From NCBI GenBank assembly GCA_033875325.1, contig JANRKA010000071.1:8980-72979 (forward strand): DNA of 64,000 nucleotides, given 5' to 3'. The number at the start of each line of letters is the position of its first letter. Position 1 is the stretch's first letter. The translations under genes and the position numbers were made by a program. Below the pieces are notes generated by a model, which saw nothing but the letters and a program-made list of their open reading frames with translations, had not been told where the DNA came from and searched no databases. Positions 28,022 to 64,000 of this stretch are shown piece by piece. This DNA is from Elusimicrobiota bacterium (GTDB lineage Bacteria; Elusimicrobiota; Elusimicrobia; UBA1565; UBA9628).

Positions 28022-28103
28022 ACGGACTTACTTGGTAGAACAACGAGATTATGCCACATTCCCGGCTAGGTGGCAATGTAGACGAGATTCTGCGGGCGCG
28101 AGC

Positions 28104-29210
28104 TTAGGCGGCTAACACGCGAAGGAGGCTGCCGTCCTCGGCGACATGCAGCAGCTTGTTCGGTTGGGCGTGGGCCTTGAGCGGGATATCGAGCAGCTTT
28201 TCGAACTCCCACTTGTTCAGCGCTTCCACGACCGCCGCGTCGAGCCCGAACTCGAGACTGAGGGGGTGGTGGGGCTCCCATTCGGGCCGGCGCTCCGGCT
28301 TGCCAGGCGCCTCCAATCGGAGCGGGCCAATCTGTTTGATCAAGTCCGCCGTCTCGCCGTATTCGTCCCGCAGGAACGTCCTTCCTTCGTGCTGGATCTC
28401 GCCCTGAAACTTCGGCATCTTTTCCACGACAGGCCCCGGAATCCATTTCTTGGTTCGGACGATCTCGGAGCTTCTGCGCTCGATGGCGCTGGCGAGAGTC
28501 GCCATGCCCGCAAGGGCTGCCGCGCTTCGGTAATGCCGCGCGAGCTGTAGATAGCGTTCCTCAGTCGACGGCGGCTTCAGGTCCTCGTCCCCCGGGGGAT
28601 CGAAGATGAAGAGCTCGACCGGCGGCCCATCGTTCGGCAGAGAGGAAATCACGCCGTACTTGTAGTTGGCGACATGCGCGGCCTTCTTGGCAGCGAGGTC
28701 TTTGGAGGCGCCGCGCACCTGCGAGCGTCTGCTCCGTCCCCGCGCCTCATAGACGGCGGTGAAGCCTCGTGAAACCACGCGGAAGTCGCATCGCTTGCTC
28801 GTGGTGGTAATTCGGGTGATCTCCGCGAGCTTGACCGAGAGAGCCTTGCACATCGTCAAGGTCGCCAGCCCGACGCCGAGCACCTGGGAGACCGCCCCCG
28901 TCCACTCGTGATCGCCAGACGCTCTCAGATGCAGGGCCTCCGTGCCCGCGTCTCGATACATGGTTCCAGCGAGGTCATCGAAGGCCCGGACTATTCGCCG
29001 GGCGGGCCCGCAGTCGCGGATGAGATAATGAACGGAGGCGTAGTGGATCAGGGCGATGGGGCGAATCGTGATTCCGGTTCGCACAAGATTCCTGAGCACT
29101 CCACTGTGCGGGTAGCTGTTCGTGGCACAGGAGCCATCGCCGTCTCGCACGGGAATAGAACATTCCGCGAATAGGTCCCTGATGAAGCCGGGAATGCCTG
29201 AGTACAGCAT
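28104..29210 (-). CDS. hypothetical 368-aa protein (no recognisable domain), first gene of a 3-gene minus-strand cassette
   Basis: It is a long ORF with good codon usage and lies next to the tRNA. It contains an Rx4H stretch (RASGDH). Confidence 0.4.
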   Translation of the reverse strand: MLYSGIPGFIRDLFAECSIPVRDGDGSCATNSYPHSGVLRNLVRTGITIRPIALIHYASVHYLIRDCGPARRIVRAFDDLAGTMYRDAGTEALHLRASGDHEWTGAVSQVLGVGLATLTMCKALSVKLAEITRITTTSKRCDFRVVSRGFTAVYEARGRSRRSQVRGASKDLAAKKAAHVANYKYGVISSLPNDGPPVELFIFDPPGDEDLKPPSTEERYLQLARHYRSAAALAGMATLASAIERRSSEIVRTKKWIPGPVVEKMPKFQGEIQHEGRTFLRDEYGETADLIKQIGPLRLEAPGKPERRPEWEPHHPLSLEFGLDAAVVEALNKWEFEKLLDIPLKAHAQPNKLLHVAEDGSLLRVLAA

Positions 29211-29648
29211 CTACCGCGCTTCGAGCCGCCAACGTGCCTCGCGTTTGCCGAGGCTCCGCACCGCGATCAGCGCCGCGCGGTTCTTGTCGCGAGGCCTGGA
29301 GCGGCCGCCTTCCCAGGCCGAAACCGCTCCCGCGCTCGCTCCCACCAGCTTTCCAAAAGCCTCTCGTGAAAGACCCAGGCGGGCACGCTGCGAGCGGATC
29401 AAGTGAGGCCCGAGGTGCGCGTTCTTCACCTCTGCTCCCGAGGCGGTGGGGGGCGCAGTCATGCGCGCTCTATAGTCGGTCTGGAGCTTGGCGTTGTCTC
29501 GCCGCAGTTGGTCCGTGGTCCGGGACAGCTCCGCGACCTTGTGCTTGAGGGCGATGACATCCTTCCTGAGCTTGGCGTCTGCTTGGCGCGACACTCGGCG
29601 GGCCAATCGCTGGATTTCTTCTCTAAGAACCGCACCGATGTTGGGCAT
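29211..29648 (-). CDS. XRE-family helix-turn-helix protein with N-terminal coiled coil
   Basis: 'IRSQRARLGLSREAFGKLVGASAGAVSAWEGG' is an HTH_XRE. The N-terminal 60 aa show a heptad-like pattern. The stop abuts the start of the 368-aa gene. Confidence 0.55.
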   Translation of the reverse strand: MPNIGAVLREEIQRLARRVSRQADAKLRKDVIALKHKVAELSRTTDQLRRDNAKLQTDYRARMTAPPTASGAEVKNAHLGPHLIRSQRARLGLSREAFGKLVGASAGAVSAWEGGRSRPRDKNRAALIAVRSLGKREARWRLEAR

Positions 29649-29658
29649 GTCGTCCCTC

Positions 29659-30087
29659 CTAAAACTTCGTCGCGCAAACGAACGCGCCGATTCCGATGAA
29701 AAGAAGCACCGCCGCGCTGCATGCGTAATCCGCCGCGGTGTACCAGCACTCCGCCTTGCCCATTTCCGCGAATCGAGCGTCGAGCTCCTTCATCTGATCG
29801 TCGGCTGGGTCTTTACGCTCATGTTTGCCGAGCCATCGGCTCCAATGACGCAGGGATTTCGCTTGGTGCTGGCTTCCGAGATAATGCGCGAGCTGCTGGA
29901 CCAGGCAGGCACAGATAGGGACGAAGAACAGGCGCGCCATTCCTCGCAGCGAGGCTTCTTTCCCCAGCTCGTATAGCGCTCCGGTCGAAAGGCCGATGAC
30001 CGTTGTCATCAGCGCTAAGCCGACGCCGCGGTAGCGTTCGTGGGCCTGCTCGGCTTTCTCCGATTCGGCTTCGGTATCTAGTGCCAT
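29659..30087 (-). CDS. small membrane protein (2 predicted TM helices)
   Basis: It is 142 aa. Hydrophobic segments are 'GVGLALMTTVIGLSTGAL' and 'AAVLLFIGIGAFVCA'. Confidence 0.4.
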   Translation of the reverse strand: MALDTEAESEKAEQAHERYRGVGLALMTTVIGLSTGALYELGKEASLRGMARLFFVPICACLVQQLAHYLGSQHQAKSLRHWSRWLGKHERKDPADDQMKELDARFAEMGKAECWYTAADYACSAAVLLFIGIGAFVCATKF

Positions 30088-30091
30088 CGTT

Positions 30092-31627
30092 TCAAGGTTT
30101 CAGCTTCAGTCGTTTGATCCGCGGCACGAAGATCTCATGGAAGCGTTCGAGGGAATGGAGCATCCATTCGTACGCCTGGGGCCATGCCGCCCGGTCGAGG
30201 AGCTTGCCGTCGAAATGGGTCTGGATCTGGCTTTCCTTCTTCGTGGGGAGCGGCTCCCAGCGTAGAGGAGCGCCGAATTCCTTATCGATCGCCGCCTTCT
30301 CCGTCTTCAGCAGCTCGTAGTTCTTCTTGCGATCCGGACCCTTGATCGCGATGTAGACGGCGAGCCGGTTCTGGCTCGCGATGGCGACGTAAAGGAAACC
30401 CCCGGTGTTGATCGTCATCCAGCCCTTCGGGCGCGGGACTGGATAGCGTAGTTTGCTGCCGGCTTTCTCCGCGTAGTTGCGGAAGCCGCTCCAGAAGTCG
30501 AACTGCAGTTTCGTGACGCCGCCCGCCCCGTTGGTCGACGCGCGCCCCGGCAGCGCCTCGTCCAGGTAAGGCTTCAGGACCTCGATGAAGCGGTGGATGC
30601 GTCCGGCGATGAATTCCGGGTCATCGGGCACCGTCTCGTAGAGACAACTCGAAGGATGATCCTCCCAGGAAACTTTGTCGCCGAGGGCCTCCTCGATTTC
30701 GCGCCGGTGGGCGGTGAGCAGGGTCTTGAGCGCGCGGTTATGGCGAGGCTGGCAGTTGGTGTGTACCTGGAACGTGCGATCCGCGGGGTCGTAGTAGAGA
30801 GAGATACCCTCATAGATGGTCTTCCAGCGCGAGAAGACGCCTTGAACATACTGCTTGCTCCTGTGGAGCCTCCAGCCCTCGCCGGCGGGGCAGTCATCCT
30901 TTAACATTCCCTCCACGCCGTCGAGCAGCTTGGAAAAGCGTTCCTTCACGTCCGCAGGCACGTTTGCTGCTTCCCCATCCTCATTCTCGTCGTCTTCCTT
31001 TGCGGACTGTGCCGGCCGCGCGGAGTCGTGCAGGGGGTTTATCAGCAGGTATTCATCGTTCGTCGTCGTGACGAAATTTGAGAACTGCAGGACGCGGCAG
31101 TCGAATCGAAGGCCGCTGATCTGGGTGATGAAGTCGGAGTCGAAGTCTTCCGCCACTACGACGCCGACCTGTTCGTCGTTGAAGTCTGGTACGTGAGTGA
31201 CCTTGAAGTGCTCCTTGAAGCGTCGCACGAGGTTGTTGACTTCGCGGTCGAAGGGGATGAGGTTCGCCTTGCGCGCGAGCTCGCCGTCGGACCACCCGCT
31301 GATCGCGGTGAGGTAGTCGTTGAGCTGGGCGACGGTATCGCGGGGAGCCCTCCCGCGCTTCAATTCGATCACGACGACGCGGCCGTGCTGGTCGAGAGCG
31401 AGCAGATCGATGAACGCGCCGCGATCGGTCTTCACCTGCCGGCCGATGAGGAGGATGTCGTCGCCGAGCAGATGCGGATTGGCGCCGAGCCAGTCCTCGA
31501 GGTTCTTCTCCAGGCGCTCGAAGCCGAACTGCCTCTTCTGGATCGGCTGGAACACCCCGGCGTCCGACTTGAACAGCTTCATCGTCATGTTACAAGGATG
31601 ATACCAAGCACGGTCCAGCGAGTCCAC
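30092..31627 (-). CDS. NucS/DUF91-like PD-(D/E)xK nuclease fused to C-terminal DUF4268-like domain
   Basis: It has 'GAFIDLLALDQHGRVVVIELKRG', the D…ExK nuclease core. The C-terminal region is 'GWMTINTGGFLYVAIA…YIAIKGP'. An alternative start at Met14 (31588) overlaps, as ATGA, a small upstream ORF. Confidence 0.6.
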   Translation of the reverse strand: MDSLDRAWYHPCNMTMKLFKSDAGVFQPIQKRQFGFERLEKNLEDWLGANPHLLGDDILLIGRQVKTDRGAFIDLLALDQHGRVVVIELKRGRAPRDTVAQLNDYLTAISGWSDGELARKANLIPFDREVNNLVRRFKEHFKVTHVPDFNDEQVGVVVAEDFDSDFITQISGLRFDCRVLQFSNFVTTTNDEYLLINPLHDSARPAQSAKEDDENEDGEAANVPADVKERFSKLLDGVEGMLKDDCPAGEGWRLHRSKQYVQGVFSRWKTIYEGISLYYDPADRTFQVHTNCQPRHNRALKTLLTAHRREIEEALGDKVSWEDHPSSCLYETVPDDPEFIAGRIHRFIEVLKPYLDEALPGRASTNGAGGVTKLQFDFWSGFRNYAEKAGSKLRYPVPRPKGWMTINTGGFLYVAIASQNRLAVYIAIKGPDRKKNYELLKTEKAAIDKEFGAPLRWEPLPTKKESQIQTHFDGKLLDRAAWPQAYEWMLHSLERFHEIFVPRIKRLKLKP

Positions 31628-31712
31628 GGCGGGTCGGTCCGCGGGCGCTCCACCCCGTTGGGGTCCTGAACGAAGGAAGTGCTTTTCCCGGCTGCCGACA
31701 TAACGCAGGTCT

Positions 31713-31989
31713 TATTTTTCATAACCACCTCCCGCTCAGCCGGCCAGGAGTGAGCGGCGCCGCGCCTGCGGCATAAACGGTCACCCCCGCCGACGATCGG
31801 GAAATTCGGCCCAACCCCCGCCGTGCCCCAAATTGCCCGACAGCGCGCTCCGCGCGGCCGCCAGCTCGGCTGCGCCGGGGGCGGTCGCCAGGTGGGGACC
31901 CACCATTTATTCCTCATCGCGGCGCCGCTCCTCGGCCGCCTTCGACCCTTCGGGCGTTCGGAGGTGGTTATGAAAAATAAGACCTGCGT
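31713..31989. repeat. perfect 30-bp inverted repeat pair bracketing a 217-bp leader; the right copy contains the RBS+ATG+6 codons of the JAB gene
   Basis: 31713-31742 is ACGCAGGTCTTATTTTTCATAACCACCTCC. It is the exact reverse complement of 31960-31989, GGAGGTGGTTATGAAAAATAAGACCTGCGT. Confidence 0.7.
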
Positions 31990-32518
31990 GAAAGTCGTAA
32001 CGGACGGCAAGACGGACACGGCGCCGGTAGCTGGTGAGTCTCTGGCCACGGAAGCCATGAAGCGTTCGAGGGTGCCTCTCTACCGGGTGATGCTCGACCG
32101 GACGGGCTCTATCCTCAAGGAGGGGACGGCATTCGTCACGGAGCCGCGAGAGGCTGCGCGGTTGTTCCGTGAGTTCATCGGGGACGCACCGCAGGAGCAC
32201 TTCTGTCTGATGGTGCTCGACGCGAGAAAGCGGGTCATCGGAATCAACGAGGTCAGCGTAGGGACGCTCTCCGCGTCCTTGGTGCATCCGCGAGAGGTCT
32301 TCCGGGCGGCCATCCTGCTCAACGGCGCGGCCGTCGTGGTGGCGCACAACCACCCGAGCGGCGACCCGGCTCCTTCCCCGGAGGACCGCGAGGCGACCCG
32401 ACGGCTCCAACGCGCGGGAGAAATCCTCGGCATTCCCGTCGCGGACCACATCGTGCTGGGAGAGGGCGAAGGAGCCTCCCTACGCTTCTTCAGCTTCCGC
32501 GACGGCGGGTTGCTCTAG
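31970..32518 (+). CDS. RadC-like JAB/MPN domain protein (DUF2466)
   Basis: It has 'VVAHNHPSGDPAPSPEDREATRRL', the HNHPSG JAMM-like motif. Confidence 0.8.
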   Translation: MKNKTCVKVVTDGKTDTAPVAGESLATEAMKRSRVPLYRVMLDRTGSILKEGTAFVTEPREAARLFREFIGDAPQEHFCLMVLDARKRVIGINEVSVGTLSASLVHPREVFRAAILLNGAAVVVAHNHPSGDPAPSPEDREATRRLQRAGEILGIPVADHIVLGEGEGASLRFFSFRDGGLL

Positions 32519-32586
32519 GGCGTCCACGCCGCCGCCCTGGGGCGACCCGGGGCGGTCCGTGGGCGCCTTAGCCCAAGGAGAACACC

Positions 32587-33051
32587 ATGAACATGAATGA
32601 ATGCGTAAGCCGTGAGCGCGAGGCGTTGAAGGAGCGGCGGCGTCTGCTGGTCGAGAAGCTCAAGCCGTTCGGAGTCGTCAGGGTCGAGGTCGATTACGAC
32701 GGCTGCGGGGACTCGGGCGATATCCAGGAAGTCCGCGCCTTGAAGAAGGGCCCCCGCTCCGACAAGGAGCAGCCCGCGAACCTGGACGGGCAGAGCGTCA
32801 CAGTCGAGCGCTTCGAGAGCGTCTACAACACCGAGCGCAAGGACTGGGACCGCAAGCCCTACCAGGCCACGGTGACGCTCAAGGAGGCGTTGAGCGACTT
32901 CGCGCTGGACTTCCTCTCGTTCCTCGGCATCGACTGGTACAACAACGAGGGCGGCTACGGGACCATCGTCCTGGATGTGGCGGGGGACGAGGCCAAGGCC
33001 GAGCACAACTATCGCATCGAGTCCAGCGAGTATTCGGAGCACGCCCTGTGA
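32587..33051 (+). CDS. hypothetical protein (mobile-element-associated)
   Basis: It is 154 aa and acidic, with 'DYDGCGDSGDI'. It overlaps the next gene as ATGA. Confidence 0.4.
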   Translation: MNMNECVSREREALKERRRLLVEKLKPFGVVRVEVDYDGCGDSGDIQEVRALKKGPRSDKEQPANLDGQSVTVERFESVYNTERKDWDRKPYQATVTLKEALSDFALDFLSFLGIDWYNNEGGYGTIVLDVAGDEAKAEHNYRIESSEYSEHAL

Positions 33052-33422
33052 GCCATACCTACCACCATGCCGTGAGCTCGGCTCGACTGTTCGGCGGCAA
33101 GCCCGAGGACTACCAGGCCGTTCATGACTGGTTCGACGAGAGCAAGGCCCACTTGGCCGAAGCCAGGCACCGGGCCAAGCGCCACCACGCGGAAGGCATC
33201 TTCGAGGCCGAGCGCGTGTTCGGCAAGACCATCATCAACAGCAACGGGACGAAGGTGCCCGTGCGCTACATCGGCGAGCAGCACGTCAAGGAGGATTGCG
33301 GCGGCTTCATCCCGTCCGAGGCCGATTGGTGGCGCTGCATCGTGCGCCAGCCGTGGATGAACCGCGGCTACGAGAGCAAGGACGGCTCCAACGCGCGGGC
33401 GGTCCGCGCGTCGGAGCCGTAA
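33048..33422 (+). CDS. hypothetical protein
   Basis: It is 124 aa and translationally coupled to the upstream gene. A hairpin terminator follows it. Confidence 0.4.
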   Translation: MSHTYHHAVSSARLFGGKPEDYQAVHDWFDESKAHLAEARHRAKRHHAEGIFEAERVFGKTIINSNGTKVPVRYIGEQHVKEDCGGFIPSEADWWRCIVRQPWMNRGYESKDGSNARAVRASEP

Positions 33423-33469: not shown

Positions 33470-33650
33470 CTTTGCGGTGGATATTGCCGCGCCCGTGGAC
33501 GGCGTGGACGAGCAGGTCGCCCACCCCGCCCACCGCCGCTTGGATATCTCTGCCCTGCGGGGCGGATCGGTCCGCGACGCTCCACCCGCGCGAGAGGCCG
33601 CGGGGTCCCCGAGATCTCCACAATCTCCACCGCTCGGCGGCGGAGATTTT
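33470..33650 (+). repeat. partial copy (C) of island repeat family
   Basis: It shares 'GCGGTGGATA..CGTGGACGGCGTGGACGAGC.GGTCGCCCACCCCGCCCACCGCCGCTTGGAT', the palindrome GGCGGATCGGTCCGCG, and the tail 'CTCCACCGCTCGGCGGCGGAGATTT' with copies at 36961, 63775 and 35925. Confidence 0.6.
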
Positions 33651-33699
33651 TTCTTCTTCTCCTTCCACGGCACTTCCCGCTCCGCCGCCTCCCTTCTTC

Positions 33700-33923
33700 G
33701 GTCTGGTCCATTTCGCACCTTCTCTCGGGCCGCAGGAGTGAAGCCCGCCTGCGCTGCGGCATAAACGGTCACCCCTCTCGGCGACTCCCCGGCCGCTCCA
33801 GAGCCTTGCTCGTTCCGCTGGCCGGGTCCCTGCCGGGGGACCCACCATTTATTCCTCGCTTCGACGGACTTCCTCGCGACCCTCCACCCTCCGGGCGGGC
33901 GGAGGTGCGAAATGGCCCAGACC
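33700..33923. repeat. imperfect inverted repeat pair bracketing a 184-bp leader homologous to 31743-31959; right copy includes start codon of gene 33912
   Basis: 33700-33719 is GGTCTGGTCCATTTCGCACC. The reverse complement of 33904-33923 is GGTCTGGGCCATTTCGCACC. Similarity continues into the coding region: the left copy encodes MDQTEEGRRRSGK and the right gene begins MAQTYETRRRSGK. Confidence 0.6.
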
Positions 33924-34298: not shown

Positions 34299-34364
34299 TT
34301 CGACCAGGGGTCCCGAGGGCGACCTCGGGGCCCCGAGCCGGGCCAGGCCCGGGAACTGAAACAC

Positions 34365-36899: not shown

Positions 36900-36960
36900 A
36901 AAAGAGGAAGCCCAGCGCCGAGAGCGCCGGGCCTCCTGTCGAACGAAGCAGCTCCTGGGG

Positions 36961-37412: not shown

Positions 37413-37426
37413 GCTATGCTAGGGAC

Positions 37427-56534: not shown

Positions 56535-56590
56535 CCGGCGGCCGCGGAAGCGGCTGATCGACGTGAAACAGATTTTAGGAGAACGATAAG

Positions 56591-58795
56591 ATGAGCGCCG
56601 AGACGAGCAGTTTTAAGATACGCGGGATGGATTGCGCCGAAGAAGTCTCCACCTTGAAACGGGAAGTTGGGCCTCTGGTCGGCGGCGAGGGCAAGCTCTC
56701 CTTTGACCTTCTCAACGGCAAGATGACGGTGCAGTCGCCGGCGGCGCCTTCTTCCGCGATCGTCGAGGCCGTCGCGCGGACGGGAATGCACGCGCAGCCG
56801 TGGGATGGAACGGTTGATTCCGGCGATTCGAGCTCTCAAGCCCCACAGCGAGCGATTCTCACGGGCGCGAGCGGCCTCTGTCTTGTGTCGGGATACCTAG
56901 CCCACGCCTGGCTTTCCGGGAGCTTCTTGGCTGCGATGGGGTCGGAAGGGCTCGGCCTGGCCCATGGCGTGCCCATGGCGGCGCGCGCCCTCTACGGCTT
57001 CGGGATATTGGCGGGTTCCTGGCTGATCCTGCCGAAGGCGATATTCGCGGCGAGGCGCCTGCGGCCCGATATGAACCTGCTGATGACCGTCGCCGTCATC
57101 GGGGCGATCGGCATAGGGGAATGGTTCGAGGGCGCCACCGTCTCCTTCTTGTTTTCCGTGGCGCTGCTCCTCGAGTCATGGAGCGTCGGACGCGCGCGTC
57201 GGGCAATCGCGGCGCTCATGGAGTTGTCGCCGTCCGTCGCGCACCTGAAGCTCGAGGACGGCACGTTGCGCGAAACTCCTGCCGGCGAGGTGCCGGTGGG
57301 CGCCGTCTTCGTGGTCAAGCCGGGAGACAAGATCCCGCTCGACGGCCTCGTGGTCGCGGGCGAGAGCGCTGTCAATCAGGCGCCGATAACGGGAGAGAGC
57401 ATGCCCGCGGCGAAGGCACCAGGCGGCGTCGTGTATGCCGGCACAATCAACGGCGACGGAGCGCTCGAGGTCAAGTCGACGAAGGCCGCGGGACAGACGA
57501 CTTTGGCCCACATCATCCGGCTGGTGGGGGAAGCCCAGAGCAAGCGCTCGCCCTCGGAGCAGTGGGTGGAGAAATTCGCGAGGATCTATACGCCCGCCGT
57601 CATGCTCCTCTCCCTCGCCGTCCTCCTCGTCCCGCCCTTGCTCTTCGGAAGCCCTTGGACGCCGTGGCTTTACCGCTCCTTGGTCCTGCTCGTCATCGGC
57701 TGCCCCTGCGCGCTCGTCATCTCGACGCCGGTGACGGTCGTCGCCGCCCTCGCTGCCGCCGCCAAGAACGGCGTGCTGCTTAAAGGGGGGACTTTTGTCG
57801 AGACGCCGGCGCGGCTGAAGGCCGTCGCGTTCGACAAGACCGGAACTTTGACGAAGGGCGAGCCGGCGGTCGTGTCGGTCGCGGCGCTCGGCGGGCACAC
57901 CGAGACCGAGCTGCTCGAGATCGTCGCCGCCATGGAGGCGCATAGCGGTCATCCGCTGGCGAAATCCATCATGGCCTACGCCCAACAGAAGGGCATCCGA
58001 CCGGCCGCGGCAAGCGGCTTCGAGATCATCCAGGGCAAAGGCGCGACGGCGACCGTGAACGGAGAACGATACTGGCTCGGCTCGCATCGCTACCTGGAGG
58101 AGCGCAAGCAGGAGACGAAAGAAGTCCACGATATGCTCGAGACCATGACGAGCTCGGGGCGCAGCGTCGTGATCGTCGGGGATGAAAAGCACGTCTGCGG
58201 ACTCATCGCGCTCGCGGATACGGTCCGGCCCGAGGCCCGAAGGACTTTGGAGGCGCTGCACGCGGAGGGCATCGAGCACCTCGTGATGCTCACCGGCGAC
58301 AACAAGGGAACGGCGGACGCGATCGCCAAAGAACTGGGTCTCGACGAAGTCTACGCCGAGTTGCTCCCTCAAGACAAAGTCTCCGCGATCGAGAAGCTGG
58401 TCTCACGCTACGGCTCGGCGGCGATGGTAGGAGACGGCGTCAACGACGCGCCCGCCCTCGCGGCCTCGACCATGGCGGTGGCGATGGGCGCCGCGGGAAG
58501 CGACGCGGCGATCGAGACCGCCGACGTGGCGCTGATGTCGGACGACCTTTTGAAGCTGCCTTGGCTCATGCGCCACTCCCGGCGCAGCCTTCGGATCATC
58601 CGTCAGAACATAGGCCTATCACTCTTGACCAAGGCCGCCTTCGTGCTGCTGACGTTTCTAGGTTACGCTTCGCTGTGGAGCGCGATCGCGGCGGATATGG
58701 GTGTGTCGTTGATCGTGATCTTCAACGCCTTGCGGCTGCTCGCTGATTCAGGGCAGGACCATCGAACCGGTAATGACTCGGCGAAAGGGCGATAA
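56591..58795 (+). CDS. heavy-metal translocating P1B-type ATPase (CPC motif)
   Basis: It has an N-terminal HMA-like domain ('FKIRGMDCAEEV'), the TM6 'CPC', 'DKTGTLT', 'GDGVNDAPAL' and 'HEGSTVVV'-like hinge motifs. Confidence 0.9.
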   Translation: MSAETSSFKIRGMDCAEEVSTLKREVGPLVGGEGKLSFDLLNGKMTVQSPAAPSSAIVEAVARTGMHAQPWDGTVDSGDSSSQAPQRAILTGASGLCLVSGYLAHAWLSGSFLAAMGSEGLGLAHGVPMAARALYGFGILAGSWLILPKAIFAARRLRPDMNLLMTVAVIGAIGIGEWFEGATVSFLFSVALLLESWSVGRARRAIAALMELSPSVAHLKLEDGTLRETPAGEVPVGAVFVVKPGDKIPLDGLVVAGESAVNQAPITGESMPAAKAPGGVVYAGTINGDGALEVKSTKAAGQTTLAHIIRLVGEAQSKRSPSEQWVEKFARIYTPAVMLLSLAVLLVPPLLFGSPWTPWLYRSLVLLVIGCPCALVISTPVTVVAALAAAAKNGVLLKGGTFVETPARLKAVAFDKTGTLTKGEPAVVSVAALGGHTETELLEIVAAMEAHSGHPLAKSIMAYAQQKGIRPAAASGFEIIQGKGATATVNGERYWLGSHRYLEERKQETKEVHDMLETMTSSGRSVVIVGDEKHVCGLIALADTVRPEARRTLEALHAEGIEHLVMLTGDNKGTADAIAKELGLDEVYAELLPQDKVSAIEKLVSRYGSAAMVGDGVNDAPALAASTMAVAMGAAGSDAAIETADVALMSDDLLKLPWLMRHSRRSLRIIRQNIGLSLLTKAAFVLLTFLGYASLWSAIAADMGVSLIVIFNALRLLADSGQDHRTGNDSAKGR

Positions 58796-59073
58796 CAAGA
58801 GGAGGACTCGGCGTTCTAGGGTCTGGTATGCGTGGATTTTCCGTGCGGTCATTCTGACGATTGTCGTGGGCGGGGGCACCTTGCTCTTTCGTCGTGCGGC
58901 GGAATCGATCGAATGCTCTTCGTCGGAGCACAAGCGCCGTTTCCACGGCCCCTTGCCTGCCGGCGGCAAGCGTGAAGAGTGTCCGTGCCGTTGACGGCTG
59001 CCATCTTCCGGCCGTTGCCCAGCGATAAGCGATAACCTTGACAAACTTCGACATGAGGGTTATAAATGACACG

Positions 59074-59472
59074 ATGATCAGAGGCCTTGCGCCGTGCACG
59101 AAGTTTATAGCGGGCGCCCTCATTGCCGCGCTGACTGCCATCGCCACGCAAGCGCCGCTCATCGCCCACGCGGTCGGGCACTGGGCCGCGTCCGCTCACG
59201 AGCACAGCCACGGCGAAGCGATTCACCGCCACGACCATGACGCCCAGCACGATCACGAGTTGCGCATCCAGACAAGTCCGCTGTCGGTCGTGCCCGCCAA
59301 GTTCGTCAATAAGTTTGACCAGAACCTCCTACCGCTCTGTGTTCTGACCTCCGTGACGGCCGCGCTTCACATGAACATCGTCTCCGCCGATGCGTGGAAG
59401 GTGCGGGGCCCGCCTCTCCCGCTCTCGCGTTCCTTCCCTCCCGCCTACAGCACGGCTCCTCCGGCCGTCTAG
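59074..59472 (+). CDS. secreted His-rich protein
   Basis: It has a signal peptide and then 'HAVGHWAASAHEHSHGEAIHRHDHDAQHDHE'. Confidence 0.4.
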   Translation: MIRGLAPCTKFIAGALIAALTAIATQAPLIAHAVGHWAASAHEHSHGEAIHRHDHDAQHDHELRIQTSPLSVVPAKFVNKFDQNLLPLCVLTSVTAALHMNIVSADAWKVRGPPLPLSRSFPPAYSTAPPAV

Positions 59473-59592
59473 CTTCCGGGTCCCGTCCTGGGAACCGGCT
59501 TTCTCCGCGTCAGTCGCCGGGCACGCCCCGCCGAAAGGGTCGTGTAAATTGAGCGGCCACGAAGAATTAAACGTCTAACGGGGAATCAAATC

Positions 59593-60321
59593 ATGCATCA
59601 GGAAAACATTCAGCTTGAGAGCCGCCGACGCGGATTTAGCAAAGCGTTTATCTTTATGGCCTTGTTCGCGGCGTTGGCGGTGTTCATCCCGGACGCCGGC
59701 GCTCACGGGGTGACTGCGGGCGACAAGGGCTATATCCAGGAAAGTTCCGGCAGCCTGGTTTTTCCGTTCATCTACCTGGGCGCAAAGCACATGGTCACGG
59801 GGTACGATCACCTGCTGTTCCTGTTCGGCGTGATCTTTTTCCTCTACCGCTTCAGAGACATCGGCGTTTACGTCAGCCTGTTCGCGGTGGGGCATACGGT
59901 CACGCTCCTATTGGGCACGCTGATGAAGATAAGCGTCAGCGCCTACCTGATCGATGCCGTGATCGGCTTCTCGATCGTCTATAAGGCTCTCGATAATATG
60001 GGGGCGTATCAGAGGTGGTTCGGCTTTCAGCCTAACACCAAGGCGGCCACGCTGATCTTCGGCCTGTTCCATGGGTTCGGTCTTGCCACCAAGATCCTTG
60101 AGTACAAGGTCTCGCCGGACGGGCTTTTCTTGAATCTCGTCTCTTTCAACGTCGGAGTGGAGTTGGGACAACTGCTGGGCCTGGCCATGATCCTCATCGG
60201 CATGGGCTTTTGGCGGCGGTCGGACAACTTCATGCGGCACGCTTACGCCGCGCAGGTGGTTTTGATGACGGGAGGTTTCCTCCTGGTTGGATATCAACTT
60301 GCCGGATTTTTTGTCGCTTAA
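59593..60321 (+). CDS. HupE/UreJ-family metal (Ni/Co) transporter
   Basis: It has 'GAKHMVTGYDHLLFLFGV' (H-x4-G-x-DH signature) and 6 TM helices. Confidence 0.7.
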   Translation: MHQENIQLESRRRGFSKAFIFMALFAALAVFIPDAGAHGVTAGDKGYIQESSGSLVFPFIYLGAKHMVTGYDHLLFLFGVIFFLYRFRDIGVYVSLFAVGHTVTLLLGTLMKISVSAYLIDAVIGFSIVYKALDNMGAYQRWFGFQPNTKAATLIFGLFHGFGLATKILEYKVSPDGLFLNLVSFNVGVELGQLLGLAMILIGMGFWRRSDNFMRHAYAAQVVLMTGGFLLVGYQLAGFFVA

Positions 60322-60332
60322 GGAGAACACTC

Positions 60333-60974
60333 ATGTACAACGCGAACATGCCTGACAAATCAGAACTCCCTTCAACGGAGAAGCTCGTCAAGTCCACCAT
60401 CCTGGCCGCCGTTTCGGCCGGCGTTCTTTTGGTCACGGTCGTTATGCCGGCTGAATATGGCATCGACCCTACCGGCGTGGGCCGCATTCTAGGCTTGAAG
60501 AGAATGGGGGACATTAAAGTATCCCTGGCACGAGAAGCCGCTGCCCAGCAGACCGCGGACCCGGCCGCCGGCGACCAAACTGCGGCCCGGCCCATAGAGG
60601 CGGCAGTGCCTGCCGTCGCGCCGGAGACAAAGCCAGCCGCAGCCGCGGCGGGAAATCGCGCCGACGAAATGCAGGTAACCCTCGCCCCCAATGAAGGAAC
60701 CGAGATCAAGGTCGAACTGGCCAAAGGCAGGAAGGTTGATTACATCTGGGCGACCGACGGCGGCCCCGCCAACTTCGACCTTCACGGCGATTCCAAAAAG
60801 CTGAAAATCGATTATCACGGATACGGCAAGGGTTCGGAGCAGAAGAGCCAAGGCACTCTAATGGCCGCGTTCGACGGGAGCCACGGCTGGTTCTGGAGAA
60901 ACCGAACGCCCAATACGCTCACCGTGACTCTTAAGGTTCACGGCGAACACACCGGCATCAAGCACATGAAGTAA
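60333..60974 (+). CDS. membrane-anchored hypothetical protein
   Basis: It has an N-terminal TM segment, an Ala/Pro-rich linker and a beta-rich C-terminus 'DYIWATDGGPANFDLHGD'. Confidence 0.4.
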   Translation: MYNANMPDKSELPSTEKLVKSTILAAVSAGVLLVTVVMPAEYGIDPTGVGRILGLKRMGDIKVSLAREAAAQQTADPAAGDQTAARPIEAAVPAVAPETKPAAAAAGNRADEMQVTLAPNEGTEIKVELAKGRKVDYIWATDGGPANFDLHGDSKKLKIDYHGYGKGSEQKSQGTLMAAFDGSHGWFWRNRTPNTLTVTLKVHGEHTGIKHMK

Positions 60975-61089
60975 GGACCTTTTCAATGAAAAGCGCACAC
61001 GACCACGATCAGACGACGTCGCAGGGACACAAGCACGGCGATGCCGCGATCCACGTCGATCCGTCGGGGAGAGGAAGGGGACCTTCATC

Positions 61090-62322
61090 ATGACGCGCAC
61101 TGAAACCGAGATGAACCGCCGGTCCAGCCTCGACTCTCTTTTCCCGCTGAACTACGACCGCGGAATCTGGCTGCCGGCGGGTTTGGCCGTGGTAGGGTTC
61201 GCAGGATTGGAGATGGTCTTTCACCTCGGCGGCGCCGCAGCCCAGGCGGGGATGCCTGACTTCCTCACGGAGGTCCGGGAAAGGACAGGATTCCGATTCT
61301 GGGATTTTCTATACCGCATCGGCTACTCGCTCCTGGTAATCCCCTTCCTCCTGCCCGCCGCAAGGGCTATTCAGGGGGCCTTGCGGAGACTCCTCGTCGC
61401 CTATCTATTGGCCCTGGGCGCCGGGGGACTGCTGGCGATATCTCTTCGGCCGGGAACCCTTGAGGCCGTCCCTTGTCTGCTGATCGCGGGCTGCGCCATC
61501 GTCACGCTGTTCTTCGCCAGGAGCGGGTTCTTCGCGATGACGGCTTTGGCGGCCGGCGCGACCACGACCGCGGCGTTGGCAACGTTCATGATCGAGCTCC
61601 ATGGCCCCATCGACATCGTTTCCGGCCTCGCATTGGGAACAATCGCCTTCCATCTCGCCTTCTCGAAGCCTCTGTTCTTTCTCGATCGCCCCAGTCCCTG
61701 GACGGGGATCGAGCACGAACTGGACAACCTTTGGAATCTCTTCGTCTCCAATACCCGACAGAAGTGGGAGCGCAACTACGCCTCGGGCTCGTGGGATTTC
61801 CTGAATTCGCCGTCGCAGCGCGGGCGCCACTACGCGATCGCGGGAATCGTCGCCGATCGTCATCCGGACGGAGGAGCCCGGGTCCTCGACGTGGGCTGCG
61901 GGCTCGGCACGCTGTACCCGCTGCTGAAGGGGCGCGTCTGTTCGTACTCGGGCCTCGACCTTTCCGAGGAGGTGATCAAGCGCTGTCGTTCCGCCTTCGC
62001 GGACGATCCGAACTGCACTTTCGCCAGCGGAGCCTTCGAGGATTTTCCGGCGCAGGAGCCCTTCGACGTCGTCGTGCTCAACGAGGTCCTGTACTACTTT
62101 CCCGTCTCGCGAGCCGTCGAGGTCTTCCAGAAGGCGCTCTCGCACGCCGGAGACGATGGTTTCGTCGTCGTCTCCATGAACCGTTCATGGAAAGGGCGCC
62201 TGATCCGGGCGCGACTGAACGCGATCTCGCCTCCGGTTCAAAGCCTGAGGATCACCAATCTCCAGACGGGAAGCTACTGGACCGTCGAAGTCTACAGCCG
62301 TGCCAAAGGAGAACATGGATGA
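61090..62322 (+). CDS. membrane domain fused to class I SAM-dependent methyltransferase
   Basis: It has 5-6 N-terminal TM helices. The C-terminus has motif I 'RVLDVGCGLGTLY' and motif post-I 'YSGLDLSEEV'. Confidence 0.5.
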   Translation: MTRTETEMNRRSSLDSLFPLNYDRGIWLPAGLAVVGFAGLEMVFHLGGAAAQAGMPDFLTEVRERTGFRFWDFLYRIGYSLLVIPFLLPAARAIQGALRRLLVAYLLALGAGGLLAISLRPGTLEAVPCLLIAGCAIVTLFFARSGFFAMTALAAGATTTAALATFMIELHGPIDIVSGLALGTIAFHLAFSKPLFFLDRPSPWTGIEHELDNLWNLFVSNTRQKWERNYASGSWDFLNSPSQRGRHYAIAGIVADRHPDGGARVLDVGCGLGTLYPLLKGRVCSYSGLDLSEEVIKRCRSAFADDPNCTFASGAFEDFPAQEPFDVVVLNEVLYYFPVSRAVEVFQKALSHAGDDGFVVVSMNRSWKGRLIRARLNAISPPVQSLRITNLQTGSYWTVEVYSRAKGEHG

Positions 62323-62771
62323 TGACAAGACTAGCCGTGCTATTCGCCGCGCTTCTGGCCGCTTCGACCTCTCTCGCCCACGACGAAGGCCACGGTCCCA
62401 GGCTCATGGAGGAGCCTCCCAAGCAAGGCGGGCTCATCGCTTCGGTCGTAGACGCGAAGGACGCAAAACTCGGGCCGGAGGCTCCGCTCGTCTATAAAGC
62501 CGAGTTGATCCGCTCGGATGACGGGACGATGCGTCTTTTCCTTTATGACGCCAAGATGGCGCCGCTAGATGGGGCCGCCTTCGAGAAGAAGGCGAACGCG
62601 ATCATTCTATCAGGGAAAAAGAAGAACAAGAAGCGCAGCTTCTCGCTGAGCAGGGAAGGCGGCGTCTACTCCGGCGTTGCTCCCAAGGCCCCGAGCCGCC
62701 CCTTCAACCTCGAGGTCTCGCTCAAAGACGGTAAGCGGTCCTTGCTCGTGGCGTTTGAGAATCTAGACTGA
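62319..62771 (+). CDS. secreted hypothetical protein
   Basis: Signal peptide MMTRLAVLFAALLAASTSLA. It is followed by 'HDEGHG'. Confidence 0.35.
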   Translation: MMTRLAVLFAALLAASTSLAHDEGHGPRLMEEPPKQGGLIASVVDAKDAKLGPEAPLVYKAELIRSDDGTMRLFLYDAKMAPLDGAAFEKKANAIILSGKKKNKKRSFSLSREGGVYSGVAPKAPSRPFNLEVSLKDGKRSLLVAFENLD

Positions 62772-62877
62772 CGCCGCACATCTGGCCCTCGTGGCTCATT
62801 GGTGTTTGGGTCTCGTCTAGTCCTGCGAGTCGCACGCTGCCTTCCGCGCGACCTAGAAAAATTCTTTAATTGCAGAA

Positions 62878-62932
62878 TAGGCGATGGAGTTCGCCTGAAC
62901 CGCCTCCGCCCAGGAGGCTGATGACTCCTACC
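62878..62932 (+). ncRNA. fluoride riboswitch (crcB RNA motif)
   Basis: 'GGCGATGGAGTTCGCC…AACCGCC…CTGATGACTCCTAC' matches the aptamer consensus (P1 GGCGAUGG/GUUCGCC, pseudoknot ACCGCC, 3' CUGAUGAnUCCUAC). It lies directly upstream of crcB. Confidence 0.85.
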
Positions 62933-62966
62933 GGAAGACGTTCTGGTAGGAGTCATTTTCATTTTA
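62921..62966 (+). terminator. riboswitch expression-platform terminator (ATGACTCCTACC…GGTAGGAGTCAT + TTTCATTTT)
   Basis: The 5' arm of the hairpin is the 3' strand of the aptamer. This is a mutually exclusive fold, typical of transcriptional ON riboswitches. Confidence 0.65.
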
Positions 62967-62980
62967 GAGGAGTGAGCAAT

Positions 62981-63355
62981 ATGGATAAGTCAATACCGCT
63001 TGTTTTCGGCGCGATCTTGGGTGTATTCGCGCGTTATCTGGTCGCGACGAGGATCTACATGATGACTGGGACCGGCTTCCCGTTTGGAACCTTGGCCGTC
63101 AATATCTCCGGCTGCCTCCTAGTAGGAGTCTTTGACAGCTGGGCAGGGGACCGCGGACTGATCGGGCCGGCGGGGCGCCTATTTCTCATGACCGGGTTCT
63201 GCGCGACCTACACGACCTTCTCGACTCTCATCCTCGAGAGTGCGCACCTCATCAGCAACGGGCAGATCGCCCGCGCCCTGGCGTACTATCTCGGGAGTGG
63301 CGTCCTGGGATTCGTGAGCTTCCGTCTGGGCGCGTTCCTTGGGAGAATATTCTAG
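62981..63355 (+). CDS. crcB: fluoride ion channel CrcB/FluC
   Basis: It has 'IPLVFGAILGVFARYLV…GTLAVNISGCLLVG' and 4 TM helices. It is preceded by RBS GGAG. Confidence 0.85.
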   Translation: MDKSIPLVFGAILGVFARYLVATRIYMMTGTGFPFGTLAVNISGCLLVGVFDSWAGDRGLIGPAGRLFLMTGFCATYTTFSTLILESAHLISNGQIARALAYYLGSGVLGFVSFRLGAFLGRIF

Positions 63356-63774
63356 GAGGCGGCATGGAGAAGGAGGTGCGCTGGCTAGGAAGCCTCCATG
63401 GCGGGTTATTGTCCCCACGCAGCGCGCGTGGATGAAGCCACTAAAATTCGTATTTGACTCGGCCGCCTGATTCGGGGCGAGTCATCCACCGCGGGTCCTG
63501 GCCAGCGATAACTTGGAGAAGAAGGGGAAGGTCTTGATGACGCGAACCGAGGCCTCCGCAGCACTGGGTCGCAGCAGCATGGCCTGAAGCCAATGGCCGA
63601 TGCGTAGGCGCGCGGCGAATCGGCGTAACCGTTCAAGCTGCCGAGTGTCCGTTCGTCGTTGTAGTCCGTCCGTCAGGCTTCGATCACGCCTTTCGCCTCG
63701 ACAATCGTCACGAACCGATTGTCGTGAGGTATTCCTCGCGAAAACGTCTGTTTAGGGGAAAAGATTCGCTCGAG

Positions 63775-64000
63775 CCGAGTATAGAGCGCGAAGCAGTACC
63801 TGCGTAAGACCCAATGCTTGCGGTGGATACCGACGCGTCCGTGGACGGCGTGGACGAGCGGGTCGCCTACCCCGCCCACCGCCGCTTGGATTTCTCCGCG
63901 CCTGCGGCGCGCGCGGATCGGTCCGCGTGCGCTCCTCCCCGCCGTGCGGCCGGCGGGGACCGAGAACTCCACCGTCTCCACCGCTCGGCGGCGGAGATTT
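63775..64000 (+). repeat. copy (B) of ~300-bp island repeat family, running off window end
   Basis: It is near-identical to 36969-37270 minus the 110-bp insert. It continues into the 'CCACCGCTCGGCGGCGGAGATTT' tail shared with copy C (33630-33650). Confidence 0.75.

What the first reader, a model, noticed from the sequence alone, without database searches (positions are those of the whole stretch)
28040..64000. Large horizontally acquired region right of the tRNA: mobile/defence-like module plus 26-kb metal and fluoride resistance island
GC drops from ~70% to ~55-65%. Gene content switches to RadC/JAB (×2), a ParB-like nuclease-domain protein, a NucS-like nuclease, an XRE regulator and small coupled hypotheticals. 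Then comes a dense resistance set: CsoR/RcnR, UPF0016, CzcD, a siderophore synthetase, OMF plus HME-RND, a P1B ATPase, HupE/UreJ and crcB with its riboswitch. Direct ~300-bp repeats at 36961 and 63775 bracket the resistance module. No integrase, relaxase or transposase lies inside the window, so the mobilisation machinery is either beyond the right edge or lost.
Basis: partly seen in the sequence, partly recalled or inferred. Interest (0 to 1): 0.6.

Follow-up and report, generated by a model that had tools for sequence, protein, structure and literature searches.

The report
Nested mosaic island beside split tRNA-Phe
The low-GC region right of the tRNA is foreign DNA in an uncultured Elusimicrobiota genome, but it is a nested mosaic rather than one island: a lineage-specific mobile-element backbone with a 26-kb metal, siderophore and fluoride cargo block inserted into one of its regulatory hairpins.

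Summary
The composition shift, gene content, riboswitch and repeats are real. The single-island reading is only partly right.

- **The tRNA anchor:** it is a tRNA-Phe(GAA) gene split by a 244-nt group I intron. A truncated native tRNA-Phe 3' half and a 170-bp spacer lie to its left.
- **The backbone (28063-37358):** a variable conflict arm is followed by RadC, DUF6878, DUF6915, an orf, a ParB-like gene, a TM gene and a second RadC. This backbone recurs in at least five other Elusimicrobiota lineages.
- **The split:** in those lineages the second RadC (or ParB) is followed within 455-743 nt by an ECF sigma gene. Here that sigma gene lies 27.4 kb away, just past the window edge.
- **The cargo:** 26.4 kb (37359-63754) sits inside the sigma leader, which is duplicated on both sides.
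- **The cargo is itself mosaic:** CsoR-GDT1-CDF-MFS; a high-GC siderophore cluster that the closest relative also has next to tRNA-Phe; and a Czc-type RND, P1B-ATPase, HupE and crcB block that occurs elsewhere in another context.
- **Mobility genes:** no integrase, relaxase or transposase in the window or in 9.3 kb beyond it.
- **Hairpin cassettes:** each backbone operon is preceded by a conserved ~300-nt hairpin containing the RBS and start codon. Their function is unresolved.

The parts
27486..27532 (-). Truncated native tRNA-Phe 3' half (anticodon loop to CCA), abutting the native cupin gene
   Evidence: Identical to the 3' half of the intact tRNA-Phe of relatives L004 and L005. It forms direct repeat D4 with 27699-27747 at 90% identity.
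27533..27702 (.). 170-bp AT-rich spacer between the truncated tRNA half and the complete tRNA
   Evidence: The same junction (CAG|ACTGGACTACATTTGG) and spacer occur in metagenome loci L033 and L038.
27703..28021 (-). tRNA-Phe(GAA) gene split by a 244-nt group I intron. Exons are 28021..27992 and 27747..27703; the intron is 27991..27748.
   Evidence: Rfam RF00028 scores 47.4 bits (gathering score 50), E 8.7e-11. Homologous introns score 49.4 and 46.5 bits in L024 and L033. Joining the exons gives exactly the intron-less tRNA-Phe of L032/36/37/43/46.
28063..31627 (-). Variable left arm of the island: 368-aa unknown (28104-29210), XRE HTH (29211-29648), 142-aa unknown (29659-30087), NucS_C+DUF4268 nuclease-like protein (30092-31627)
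   Evidence: Similarity to L033 and L024 ends at 28062-28064. Domains from Pfam. The nuclease-like protein matches PADLOC candidate PDC-S11 at 8.5e-32. These genes have no homologue in five other backbone loci.
31700..32010 (+). Hairpin cassette 1; its 3' arm carries the RBS and ATG of RadC1
   Evidence: A perfect 30-nt inverted repeat lies at 31703-31732 / 31960-31989. MFE is -175.7 kcal/mol, z -8.7. nhmmer E 4.8e-60.
31970..33422 (+). RadC1 (31970-32518), DUF6878 (32587-33051), DUF6915 (33048-33422)
   Evidence: Pfam E-values 3.6e-40, 1.4e-20 and 2e-45. Orthologues occur in L011 and L015.
33472..33949 (+). Leader A: repeat blocks with a terminator-like hairpin (33630-33643), then hairpin cassette 2 (33672-33949)
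   Evidence: Repeat and inverted-repeat data. MFE z-score is -5.1. nhmmer E 4.7e-68.
33912..35894 (+). Conserved orf128 (33912-34298) and ParB-like protein (34365-35894)
   Evidence: Pfam ParB_N and HTH_ParB. Of 65 homologues, the 44 covering at least half the protein are 38-100% identical, and every one of those with a source name is from an Elusimicrobiota MAG.
35959..36899 (+). Short leader fragment B (35959-36059), TM protein (about 36100-36483), RadC2 (36480-36899)
   Evidence: Repeat data. Pfam RadC 9.2e-39. RadC2 is 84% identical to that of L011.
36958..37358 (+). Leader C: left copy of the duplicated sigma-gene leader. It is cut off in the apical part of the hairpin and lacks the 5' arm.
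   Evidence: 93-99% identical to 63755-63944. 37265-37358 matches L006 3262-3355 at 95.7%. Only profile positions 99-171 are retained.
37359..40200 (+). Cargo block 1: CsoR-type repressor, GDT1/UPF0016, CDF (CzcD-like), MFS
   Evidence: Pfam. GC is 0.65.
40201..48004 (+). Cargo block 2, the siderophore cluster: two palindromic boxes (40213-40282), a small ORF, IucA/IucC+FhuF, MFS, an MFS-PepSY_TM fusion, and a 202-aa protein
   Evidence: Pfam. GC is 0.70-0.74. The gene order matches L004 directly right of its tRNA-Phe, but at only 65-69% nt and about 38-63% aa identity.
48048..63754 (+). Cargo block 3: 91-aa ORF, OEP, short MFP-like protein, CzcA/CusA-type RND, P-II, unknowns, P1B ATPase, HupE/UreJ, methyltransferase, fluoride riboswitch (62871-62937), CrcB (62981-63355)
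   Evidence: Domains and riboswitch. Homologue names. The core recurs at 76% nt in L048 next to SLT and HTH_17 genes.
63755..64000 (+). Leader D: right, complete copy of the sigma-gene leader. It runs off the window.
   Evidence: L006 is 100% identical to 60858-64000. It continues with the hairpin (L006 3164-3489) and an ECF sigma gene (L006 3452-4054).

Best explanation
The region is a nested, mosaic genomic island in the chromosome of an uncultured Elusimicrobiota bacterium. It sits at a hypervariable site on the 5' side of tRNA-Phe.

Layer 1 is a lineage-specific mobile-element backbone. It has a variable conflict-gene arm, then RadC1, (DUF6878, DUF6915), orf128, ParB-like, TM, RadC2, a leader, ECF sigma and further genes. 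Its operons are each preceded by a ~300-nt hairpin cassette.

Layer 2 is a 26.4-kb cargo block (37359-63754). It entered the backbone inside the apical part of the hairpin leader of the sigma gene. The most likely route (inferred) is Campbell-type recombination of a circular intermediate carrying a leader copy. That left the leader duplicated on both sides, as leader C and leader D.

The cargo is itself assembled from at least three modules:
- a CsoR-controlled cation-efflux set;
- a siderophore cluster, probably captured from the tRNA-Phe neighbourhood of a related genome;
- a portable Czc-type RND, P1B-ATPase, HupE, methyltransferase and riboswitch-crcB set.

Shown: composition, boundaries, gene content, the backbone's recurrence elsewhere, the split of the backbone, and the leader duplication. 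Inferred: the recombination mechanism, the order of events, and that the recombinase lies beyond the sequence available or has been lost.
For: Composition:
- GC, GC3 and tetranucleotide usage differ from the native left flank.

Synteny:
- L004 matches window 15486-27537 at 83-88% nt. It then goes straight from an intact tRNA-Phe into the siderophore cluster.
- L005 and about 25 metagenome loci keep the left flank or the tRNA but have unrelated right flanks.

Backbone recurrence:
- It recurs in L011/12, L013/14, L015/16, L131 and L133, with ParB at 57-80% aa identity.
- The flanks differ: tRNA-Tyr in two loci, and different conflict systems on the left.
- An integrase is present in L013/14.

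The split:
- In four loci the sigma orthologue (44-79% aa) starts 455-743 nt after RadC2 or ParB.
- In the window plus L006 it starts 27.4 kb after RadC2.

Leader copies:
- Leaders C and D are each other's closest relatives: the blocks they share are 93-99% identical, against 85-92% for the same blocks of leader D in L011. One leader segment (37265-37358) is 95.7% identical in both comparisons.
- Each carries a different deletion relative to L011's full leader.

Independent assemblies:
- The crcB-leader D-sigma junction is present in a separate NCBI contig (L006).
- Logan contigs confirm the leader C 3' end-CsoR and crcB-leader D joins.

Portable cargo:
- The RND-ATPase-MTase core occurs in another context in L048.
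Against: - No integrase, relaxase, T4SS or transposase lies in the window or in the 9.3-kb extension. Mobility is therefore inferred from distribution only.
- The island lies on the 5' side of the tRNA, which is not the usual geometry. The tRNA-derived repeat encloses only 170 bp.
- The siderophore cluster has host-like GC and occupies the same relative position as in L004. It could be vertically inherited rather than cargo.
- The joins at 28063 and at RadC2-leader C are seen only in this one metagenome contig. I could not retrieve the source contig or reads.
Confidence: 0.6

Rival explanations
1. One reading: one large tRNA-integrated island. Its resistance module is a discrete unit bracketed by ~300-bp direct repeats, and the integrase and second att site lie beyond the right edge.
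For: - A truncated native tRNA-Phe 3' half sits at 27486-27532. In the classical geometry this would be the distal att of an element extending rightwards, with the intact native tRNA beyond the window.
- All low-GC segments share leader repeats that are absent from the native 27 kb.
- Tetranucleotide usage of all segments, including the siderophore block, is closer to each other than to native DNA.
Against: - No second tRNA-Phe fragment occurs in the window, and no tRNA or integrase in the next 9.3 kb.
- The composite of truncated half, spacer and intron-bearing tRNA recurs in L033 and L038 without the island. That repeat is therefore a separate, older feature.
- The repeats are leader copies of a backbone that continues on both sides.
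Confidence: 0.15
2. Two independent insertions flank a vertically inherited siderophore cluster. One island occupies 28.06-40.2 kb and another starts at 48.0 kb and runs past the window. Each happens to carry backbone-type leaders.
For: - L004 has the siderophore cluster directly next to tRNA-Phe, in the same orientation and with the same palindromic boxes.
- GC of 41-46 kb is host-like at 0.72-0.74.
Against: - The two low-GC parts are exactly complementary halves of one backbone: the left part ends in the sigma leader, and the right part starts at the same leader's first base. That is unlikely for independent insertions.
- Siderophore proteins are only about 38-63% identical to L004, against 78-95% for left-flank proteins.
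- The block's tetranucleotide correlation is 0.73-0.74 with native DNA but 0.81-0.88 with the other island segments.
Confidence: 0.15
3. Assembly or binning artefact: the contig is chimeric at the tRNA and/or at the repeated leaders, so the apparent nesting is not real.
For: - The source is a metagenome-assembled genome.
- Short-read contigs break exactly at the leader repeats.
- The joins at 28063 and at RadC2-leader C are not independently confirmed.
Against: - Leader C and leader D each have unique indels that allow unambiguous assembly.
- The crcB-leader D-sigma join is reproduced in a different NCBI assembly.
- Logan contigs confirm the leader C 3' end-CsoR and crcB-leader D joins.
- The only alternative resolution of the repeat graph is an intact backbone plus a 26.4-kb circle. 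That is the excised form of the same structure.
Confidence: 0.07

Closest known systems
tRNA-associated genomic islands and integrative elements with a RadC-containing conserved module (e.g. E. coli CP4-type islands with YeeS/YkfG/YfjY RadC-like genes; from my own knowledge)
   Same: - Foreign composition and adjacency to a tRNA gene.
- A conserved RadC-type module with variable cargo.
- Defence and conflict genes in a variable arm.
- Absent from relatives at the same locus.
   Different: - It lies on the 5' side of the tRNA.
- No integrase is in the available sequence.
- No att repeats bracket the island.
- The backbone (ParB-like 509 aa, orf128, DUF6878/6915, ECF sigma) is confined to Elusimicrobiota MAGs in the search made.
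Leading-region anti-defence islands of conjugative elements with Frpo/ssi single-strand promoters (PMC11541004)
   Same: - Dispersed ~300-nt hairpin-forming repeats lie upstream of successive operons.
- All are in one orientation, in a module of MGE-typical accessory genes.
   Different: - No oriT, relaxase or T4SS is nearby.
- No convincing -35/-10 boxes lie in the stem.
- The 3' arm includes the RBS, the start codon and about 10 codons.
- No strand preference was found after controlling for composition.
- No sequence comparison with known Frpo was possible.
Heavy-metal resistance islands with czcCBA-type HME-RND, CzcD-type CDF and P1B ATPases (e.g. Cupriavidus metallidurans islands and plasmids; from my own knowledge)
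   Same: - An OMF plus a CzcA/CusA-family RND pump, a CDF, a P1B ATPase and a metal-sensing repressor are clustered on foreign DNA.
   Different: - The membrane-fusion protein is only 204 aa and matches just the C-terminal part of the family model.
- A P-II-like gene follows the pump.
- The block is combined with a siderophore cluster and a fluoride riboswitch-crcB unit.
Bacterial tRNA group I introns (cyanobacterial tRNA-Leu(UAA) and tRNA-fMet; proteobacterial tRNA-Ile and tRNA-Arg; from my own knowledge)
   Same: - A small (244-nt) ORF-less group I intron lies in the anticodon-arm region.
- U precedes the 5' splice site and the intron ends in G.
- Distribution among relatives is patchy.
   Different: - The host tRNA is tRNA-Phe(GAA).
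- The insertion is between nt 31 and 32.
- It is accompanied by a truncated duplicate 3' half.

Membership tests
tRNA-integrated genomic island / integrative element | Composition deviating from the host | tested here: met
   GC, GC3 and tetranucleotide usage all deviate.
tRNA-integrated genomic island / integrative element | Absent from the same locus in relatives | tested here: met
   L004, L005 and about 25 metagenome loci lack it. Only the siderophore part is shared, and only with L004.
tRNA-integrated genomic island / integrative element | Direct repeats derived from the tRNA 3' end bracketing the island | tested here: not met
   The only tRNA-derived repeat pair (27484-27532 / 27699-27747) encloses 170 bp. 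No other copy occurs in the window or in L006.
tRNA-integrated genomic island / integrative element | Integrase gene | tested here: not met
   None in the window or the 9.3-kb extension. A related backbone locus (L013/14) does have one.
Integrative conjugative element | Relaxase, coupling protein and T4SS genes | tested here: not met
   None in the window, in L006, or within 10 kb on either side of the backbone in five related loci.
Composite transposon | Flanking IS copies with transposase | tested here: not met
   The flanking repeats are non-coding leader copies. There is no transposase domain and no plasmid match.
Frpo/ssi single-strand promoter | ~300-nt hairpin upstream of genes, all in one orientation | tested here: met
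   All 12 hairpins give z-scores of -5 to -10. 16 of 48 consensus pairs show compensatory changes. All 30 profile hits lie on the gene strand.
Frpo/ssi single-strand promoter | -35/-10 elements within the stem; location in a leading region next to oriT | tested here: inconclusive
   Only weak matches exist (GTGAGC-N16-CATAAA in the 5' arm, by inspection). The σ70 consensus scan of 31500-37500 found only two minus-strand promoter-like sites and none at the plus-strand hairpin motifs. No oriT or relaxase is available.
Fluoride riboswitch-crcB unit | RF01734 aptamer directly upstream of a CrcB gene | tested here: met
   62.4 bits against a gathering score of 34. Pfam CRCB 4.7e-22.
HME-RND (CzcCBA-type) efflux system | OMF, MFP and CzcA/CusA-family RND pump in one operon | tested here: inconclusive
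   OEP and ACR_tran are clear, and homologues are named CusA/CzcA. The MFP candidate is 204 aa and scores 26 bits against a cut-off of 94.9.
Group I intron in a tRNA gene | Group I core fold, U at -1, terminal G, and exons that join to a functional tRNA | tested here: met
   RF00028 scores 47.4 bits (gathering score 50), E 8.7e-11, and 49.4 bits in L024. The joined exons equal intron-less tRNA-Phe genes.

The most novel reading that the evidence does not exclude
The ~300-nt hairpin cassettes would be single-strand-DNA promoters or initiation sites. They carry the RBS, the start codon and about 10 codons in the 3' arm, and their pairing covaries. On this reading the RadC-ParB-RadC-sigma backbone is the leading region of an undescribed class of Elusimicrobiota transferable elements. 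Cargo such as the 26.4-kb resistance block would then be captured by recombination at the hairpin apex.
Probability: 0.15. Interest if true: 0.7.

Novelty: new variant of a known kind. Interest (0 to 1): 0.45.

Why it matters
A metal and fluoride resistance island next to a tRNA is ordinary. The useful results are these:

- **A corrected anatomy.** A conserved backbone is split by nested cargo, and a chromosomal-type siderophore cluster lies inside that cargo.
- **A recurrent mobile-element backbone in Elusimicrobiota.** I did not look for, and do not know of, published mobile elements in this phylum. This backbone carries defence genes on one side and efflux cargo on the other.
- **Two unusual RNA/DNA features.** One is a family of long, covarying hairpin cassettes that occlude the translation start of every backbone operon. 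The other is a tRNA-Phe gene split by a group I intron, with a truncated duplicate half beside it.

If the hairpins act on single-stranded DNA, they would extend the Frpo principle far beyond proteobacterial plasmids.

Tried and rejected
- **ARAGORN on the window:** no tRNA. The intron explains this.
- **Rfam on the repeats and leaders at E<=1:** no family matched, including radC-type motifs.
no match.
- **ParB-like protein in IMG/VR:** none, so there is no support for a prophage.
- **Contig look-ups:** those for the 100% ParB hit (P0001), the 95% RND hit (P0066) and RadC2 returned nothing. The source contig could not be extended or the left junctions re-checked.
- **Strand-asymmetry test of the hairpins:**
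  - The template strand has lower free energy in 12 of 12.
  - The z-scores against shuffles do not differ consistently, so the test is uninformative.
- **σ70-type boxes in the hairpin stems:** only weak matches.
- **tblastn with the integrase, rve transposase, SLT and HTH_17 proteins of related loci against the window plus L006:** nothing.
- **Literature search for a tRNA-Phe group I intron or Elusimicrobia introns:** nothing relevant.
- **MITE explanation for the hairpins:** rejected, because the 5' arm covaries with the different N-terminal coding sequences of the downstream genes.

Full report
**Observation**

GC is 0.69-0.78 across 1-27 kb. It falls to 0.62-0.67 from 27 to 41 kb, returns to 0.72-0.74 at 41-46 kb, and is 0.59-0.68 from 47 kb to the end. 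Third-position GC of the called genes drops from 0.87-0.98 on the left to 0.66-0.93 on the right.

Tetranucleotide usage of the two native halves correlates at 0.93. The right-hand segments correlate at 0.65-0.85 with native DNA and 0.81-0.89 with one another. The high-GC siderophore segment follows the same pattern: 0.73-0.74 with native DNA and 0.81-0.88 with the other island segments.

The fluoride riboswitch is at 62871-62937 with 62.4 bits. The left 27 kb is housekeeping DNA: GcvP, transglycosylase, adenylosuccinate lyase, an RlmI-like methyltransferase, subtilases and a YegS-type kinase.

**The tRNA**

ARAGORN finds no tRNA. A tRNA-Phe(GAA) gene is nevertheless present on the minus strand at 28021..27703, interrupted by a 244-nt group I intron.
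- RF00028 scores 47.4 bits, just under the gathering score of 50, with E 8.7e-11.
- The exons are 28021..27992 and 27747..27703.
- The 5' exon ends in U and the intron ends in G.
- The joined exons are identical to intron-less tRNA-Phe genes found in five metagenome loci.

To the left lie a 170-bp spacer and then a truncated tRNA-Phe 3' half (27486-27532). This half is identical to the 3' half of the intact, intron-less tRNA-Phe of the relatives L004 and L005. It abuts the native cupin gene.

The same composite (truncated half, spacer, intron-bearing gene) occurs in L033 and L038 at 77-78% nt identity. The intron also occurs in L024 at 93% identity, with Rfam scores of 46.5-49.4 bits for the two full-length copies (L024, L033) and 28.7 bits for the copy in L038, which the contig end cuts off. 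In L033 and L024 similarity to the window stops at 28062-28064. L033 has an rve-type transposase there instead.

The tRNA composite is therefore a separate and older feature. The large island starts at about 28063, on the 5' side of the tRNA.

**Relatives at the locus**

The closest genome found is an Elusimicrobia MAG (L004, a 3.1-Mb contig). It is collinear with window 15486-27537 at 83-88% nt, and its left-flank proteins are 78-95% identical. From its intact tRNA-Phe it runs directly into two palindromic boxes, a small ORF, IucA/IucC, and MFS and PepSY genes.

These match window 40915-47993, but only at 65-69% nt and roughly 38-63% aa. L004 has nothing corresponding to 28.06-40.2 kb. It also has nothing corresponding to the DNA after 48.0 kb, within the 2.2 kb of L004 sequence available beyond that point.

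L005 and about 25 further loci with the same tRNA have unrelated right flanks. Several of them keep the same kinase-cupin left flank. The right side of this tRNA is a variable site.

**The backbone**

Homologues of the 509-aa ParB-like protein that cover most of its length come, wherever a source name exists, from Elusimicrobiota MAGs. Five independent contexts were read: L011/12, L013/14, L015/16, L131 and L133. Four of them show the conserved order RadC, (DUF6878, DUF6915), orf of about 130 aa, ParB-like, small TM protein, RadC, about 0.5 kb of non-coding DNA, and an ECF sigma factor; L013/14 keeps the part up to ParB but has an integrase and Fic in place of the second RadC and the sigma gene.

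The flanks differ between loci:
- tRNA-Tyr on the same side in L013 and L015.
- A GASH, DO-GTPase and GAP1-N1 conflict system in L011.
- REase-ARP plus helicase in L133.
- Mrr in L013.
- RND efflux genes in L015 and L131.
- An integrase in L013/14.

In the window the corresponding left arm holds a 368-aa unknown, an XRE regulator, a 142-aa unknown and a NucS_C+DUF4268 protein. The last matches the PADLOC candidate PDC-S11 at 8.5e-32. None of these has a homologue in the other backbone loci. DUF6915 has 402 relatives in IMG/VR. The ParB-like protein has none.

**The split**

In L011, L015, L131 and L133 the sigma gene starts 455-743 nt after RadC2, or after ParB in L131. In the window, RadC2 ends at 36899 and no sigma gene follows.

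A second NCBI assembly (L006) is 100% identical to window 60858-64000 and extends it by 9.35 kb. The sigma orthologue is at L006 3452-4054, which corresponds to window position 64309. It is 79%, 54% and 44% identical to the sigma factors of L011, L015 and L131. The backbone is therefore split by 27.4 kb.

The sigma leader is present twice, as leader C (36958-37358) and leader D (63755 to about 64346).
- Their shared blocks are 93-99% identical, against 85-92% between the same blocks of leader D and L011's single leader. The 37265-37358 segment is an exception: it is 95.7% identical both to leader D and to L011.
- Each copy has its own deletion. Leader D lacks a 127-nt segment.
- Leader C lacks about 175 nt, including the hairpin's 5' arm, and ends in the apical part of the hairpin. 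Only profile positions 99-171 of 294 remain.

The intervening 26,396 bp (37359-63754) is thus an insertion into this leader, with the leader duplicated. They are leader copies, not mobile-element ends.

**The cargo is mosaic**

- **Block 1 (37359-40200, GC 0.65):** CsoR, GDT1, CDF and MFS.
- **Block 2 (40201-48004, GC 0.70-0.74):** the siderophore cluster described above.
- **Block 3 (48048-63754, GC 0.59-0.66):**
  - Genes: OEP, a 204-aa MFP-like protein, a CzcA/CusA-type RND pump, P-II, unknowns, a P1B ATPase, HupE/UreJ, a methyltransferase and the riboswitch-crcB unit.
  - The core of block 3 recurs at 76% nt (RND 89% aa) in L048-L050. There it lies downstream of SLT, HTH_17 and CSD genes and without the siderophore cluster. 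It is therefore a portable unit.

**Hairpin cassettes**

Every backbone operon is preceded by a 275-340-nt imperfect hairpin. Its 3' arm contains GGAGGTG, the ATG and the first 7-13 codons. Its 5' arm is complementary to them. In the RadC1 copy a 30-nt stretch is perfectly complementary.

Twelve copies from five loci (the window, L006, L011, L013 and L015) were aligned.
- They share invariant motifs: TGCGGCATAAACGG in the 5' arm, and CCATTTAT/ATCCTC and CCCTCCGGG in the 3' arm.
- The consensus structure has 48 pairs, and 16 of them carry compensatory double changes.

A sequence profile of these copies was searched against 134 held loci (1.69 Mb). It hit only backbone loci, with 30 hits all on the gene strand. 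The hits included L131, L132 and L133, which were not used to build the profile.

Folding is far better than shuffles on both strands, with z-scores of -5 to -10. The template strand is more stable in absolute terms in 12 of 12, but not relative to composition-matched shuffles. DNA-level and RNA-level function therefore cannot be separated here.

The arrangement resembles the dispersed Frpo/ssi repeats of plasmid leading regions (PMC11541004). However, no oriT, relaxase or convincing promoter boxes were found.

**Mobility genes**

No integrase, relaxase, T4SS or transposase domain was found in the window or in L006.

**Interpretation**

The best-supported reading is a nested island. A lineage-specific backbone sits at a variable site beside tRNA-Phe. 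It was later split by a composite cargo block that entered through its sigma-gene leader. The duplication of a whole leader fits Campbell-type recombination of a circle carrying a leader copy. This step is inferred.

The siderophore cluster shows low identity to L004 and island-like tetranucleotide usage. This suggests it was captured from the tRNA-Phe neighbourhood of a related genome rather than inherited in place. The alternative, two insertions around a native cluster, is not excluded.

**Caveats**

- The contig is from a metagenome.
- The joins at 28063 and between RadC2 and leader C are seen only in this contig.
- I could not retrieve the source contig or reads.

Noticed in passing
window 27486-28021 (minus strand): tRNA-Phe(GAA) is split by a 244-nt group I intron between tRNA nt 31 and 32. 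A truncated native tRNA-Phe 3' half and a 170-bp spacer lie downstream of it. The same composite occurs in metagenome loci L033 and L038, and the intron also occurs in L024. The closest relative, L004, has a plain intron-less gene. How the half-gene duplication arose is unexplained.
   Followed up: partly
window 31700-32010, 33672-33949, fragment 37264-37345; L006 3164-3489; L011, L013, L015, L131, L133: A family of ~300-nt hairpin cassettes whose 3' arm holds the RBS, the ATG and about 10 codons. Pairing covaries, and the family is found only in RadC-ParB-RadC-sigma backbone loci, always on the gene strand. RadC1 and the sigma factor share the cassette-encoded N-terminus MK(N)KTC.K.VV.DGK.
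   Followed up: partly
window 40213-40239 and 40256-40282; L004 11490-11600: Two palindromic boxes (CTTATTGAnAT...TTTCAATAAG) lie upstream of the IucA/IucC operon. They are conserved in L004 directly beside its tRNA-Phe. They are probably the operator of an iron-responsive repressor.
   Followed up: no
window 49732-49869: A 69-nt tandem duplication (78% identical) lies inside the unusually short (204-aa) MFP-like gene of the RND operon.
   Followed up: no
window 26946-27035: A 40-nt-arm inverted repeat (83% complementary) lies between the convergent kinase and cupin genes. It is probably a bidirectional terminator.
   Followed up: no
window 4000-8000: A stretch with GC of 0.77-0.78 and strongly negative AT skew (-0.3). 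Its ORFs (e.g. 6111-7622, minus strand) have no Pfam match and unusual codon-position GC.
   Followed up: no
L048 1578-15939 (also L049, L050): The OEP, short MFP, RND, P-II, P1B ATPase and methyltransferase core recurs at 76% nt. It lies next to a lytic transglycosylase and a 705-aa HTH_17 protein, followed by ankyrin, caspase-like and MazG_C genes. This may be part of a conjugative or other mobile element.
   Followed up: partly
L011 1706-7772; L133 1-6782; L013 4160-4921: The left arm of the backbone carries a different conflict system in each lineage: GASH, DO-GTPase1/2 and GAP1-N1; SbcCD-like, HD, REase-ARP and helicase; or Mrr. This suggests a defence-cargo hotspot.
   Followed up: partly
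window 33048-33422: DUF6915 has 402 relatives (57-69% identity among the best 80) in IMG/VR viral contigs. It is 96% identical to the L015 copy, although the neighbouring genes are only 56-71% identical.
   Followed up: no
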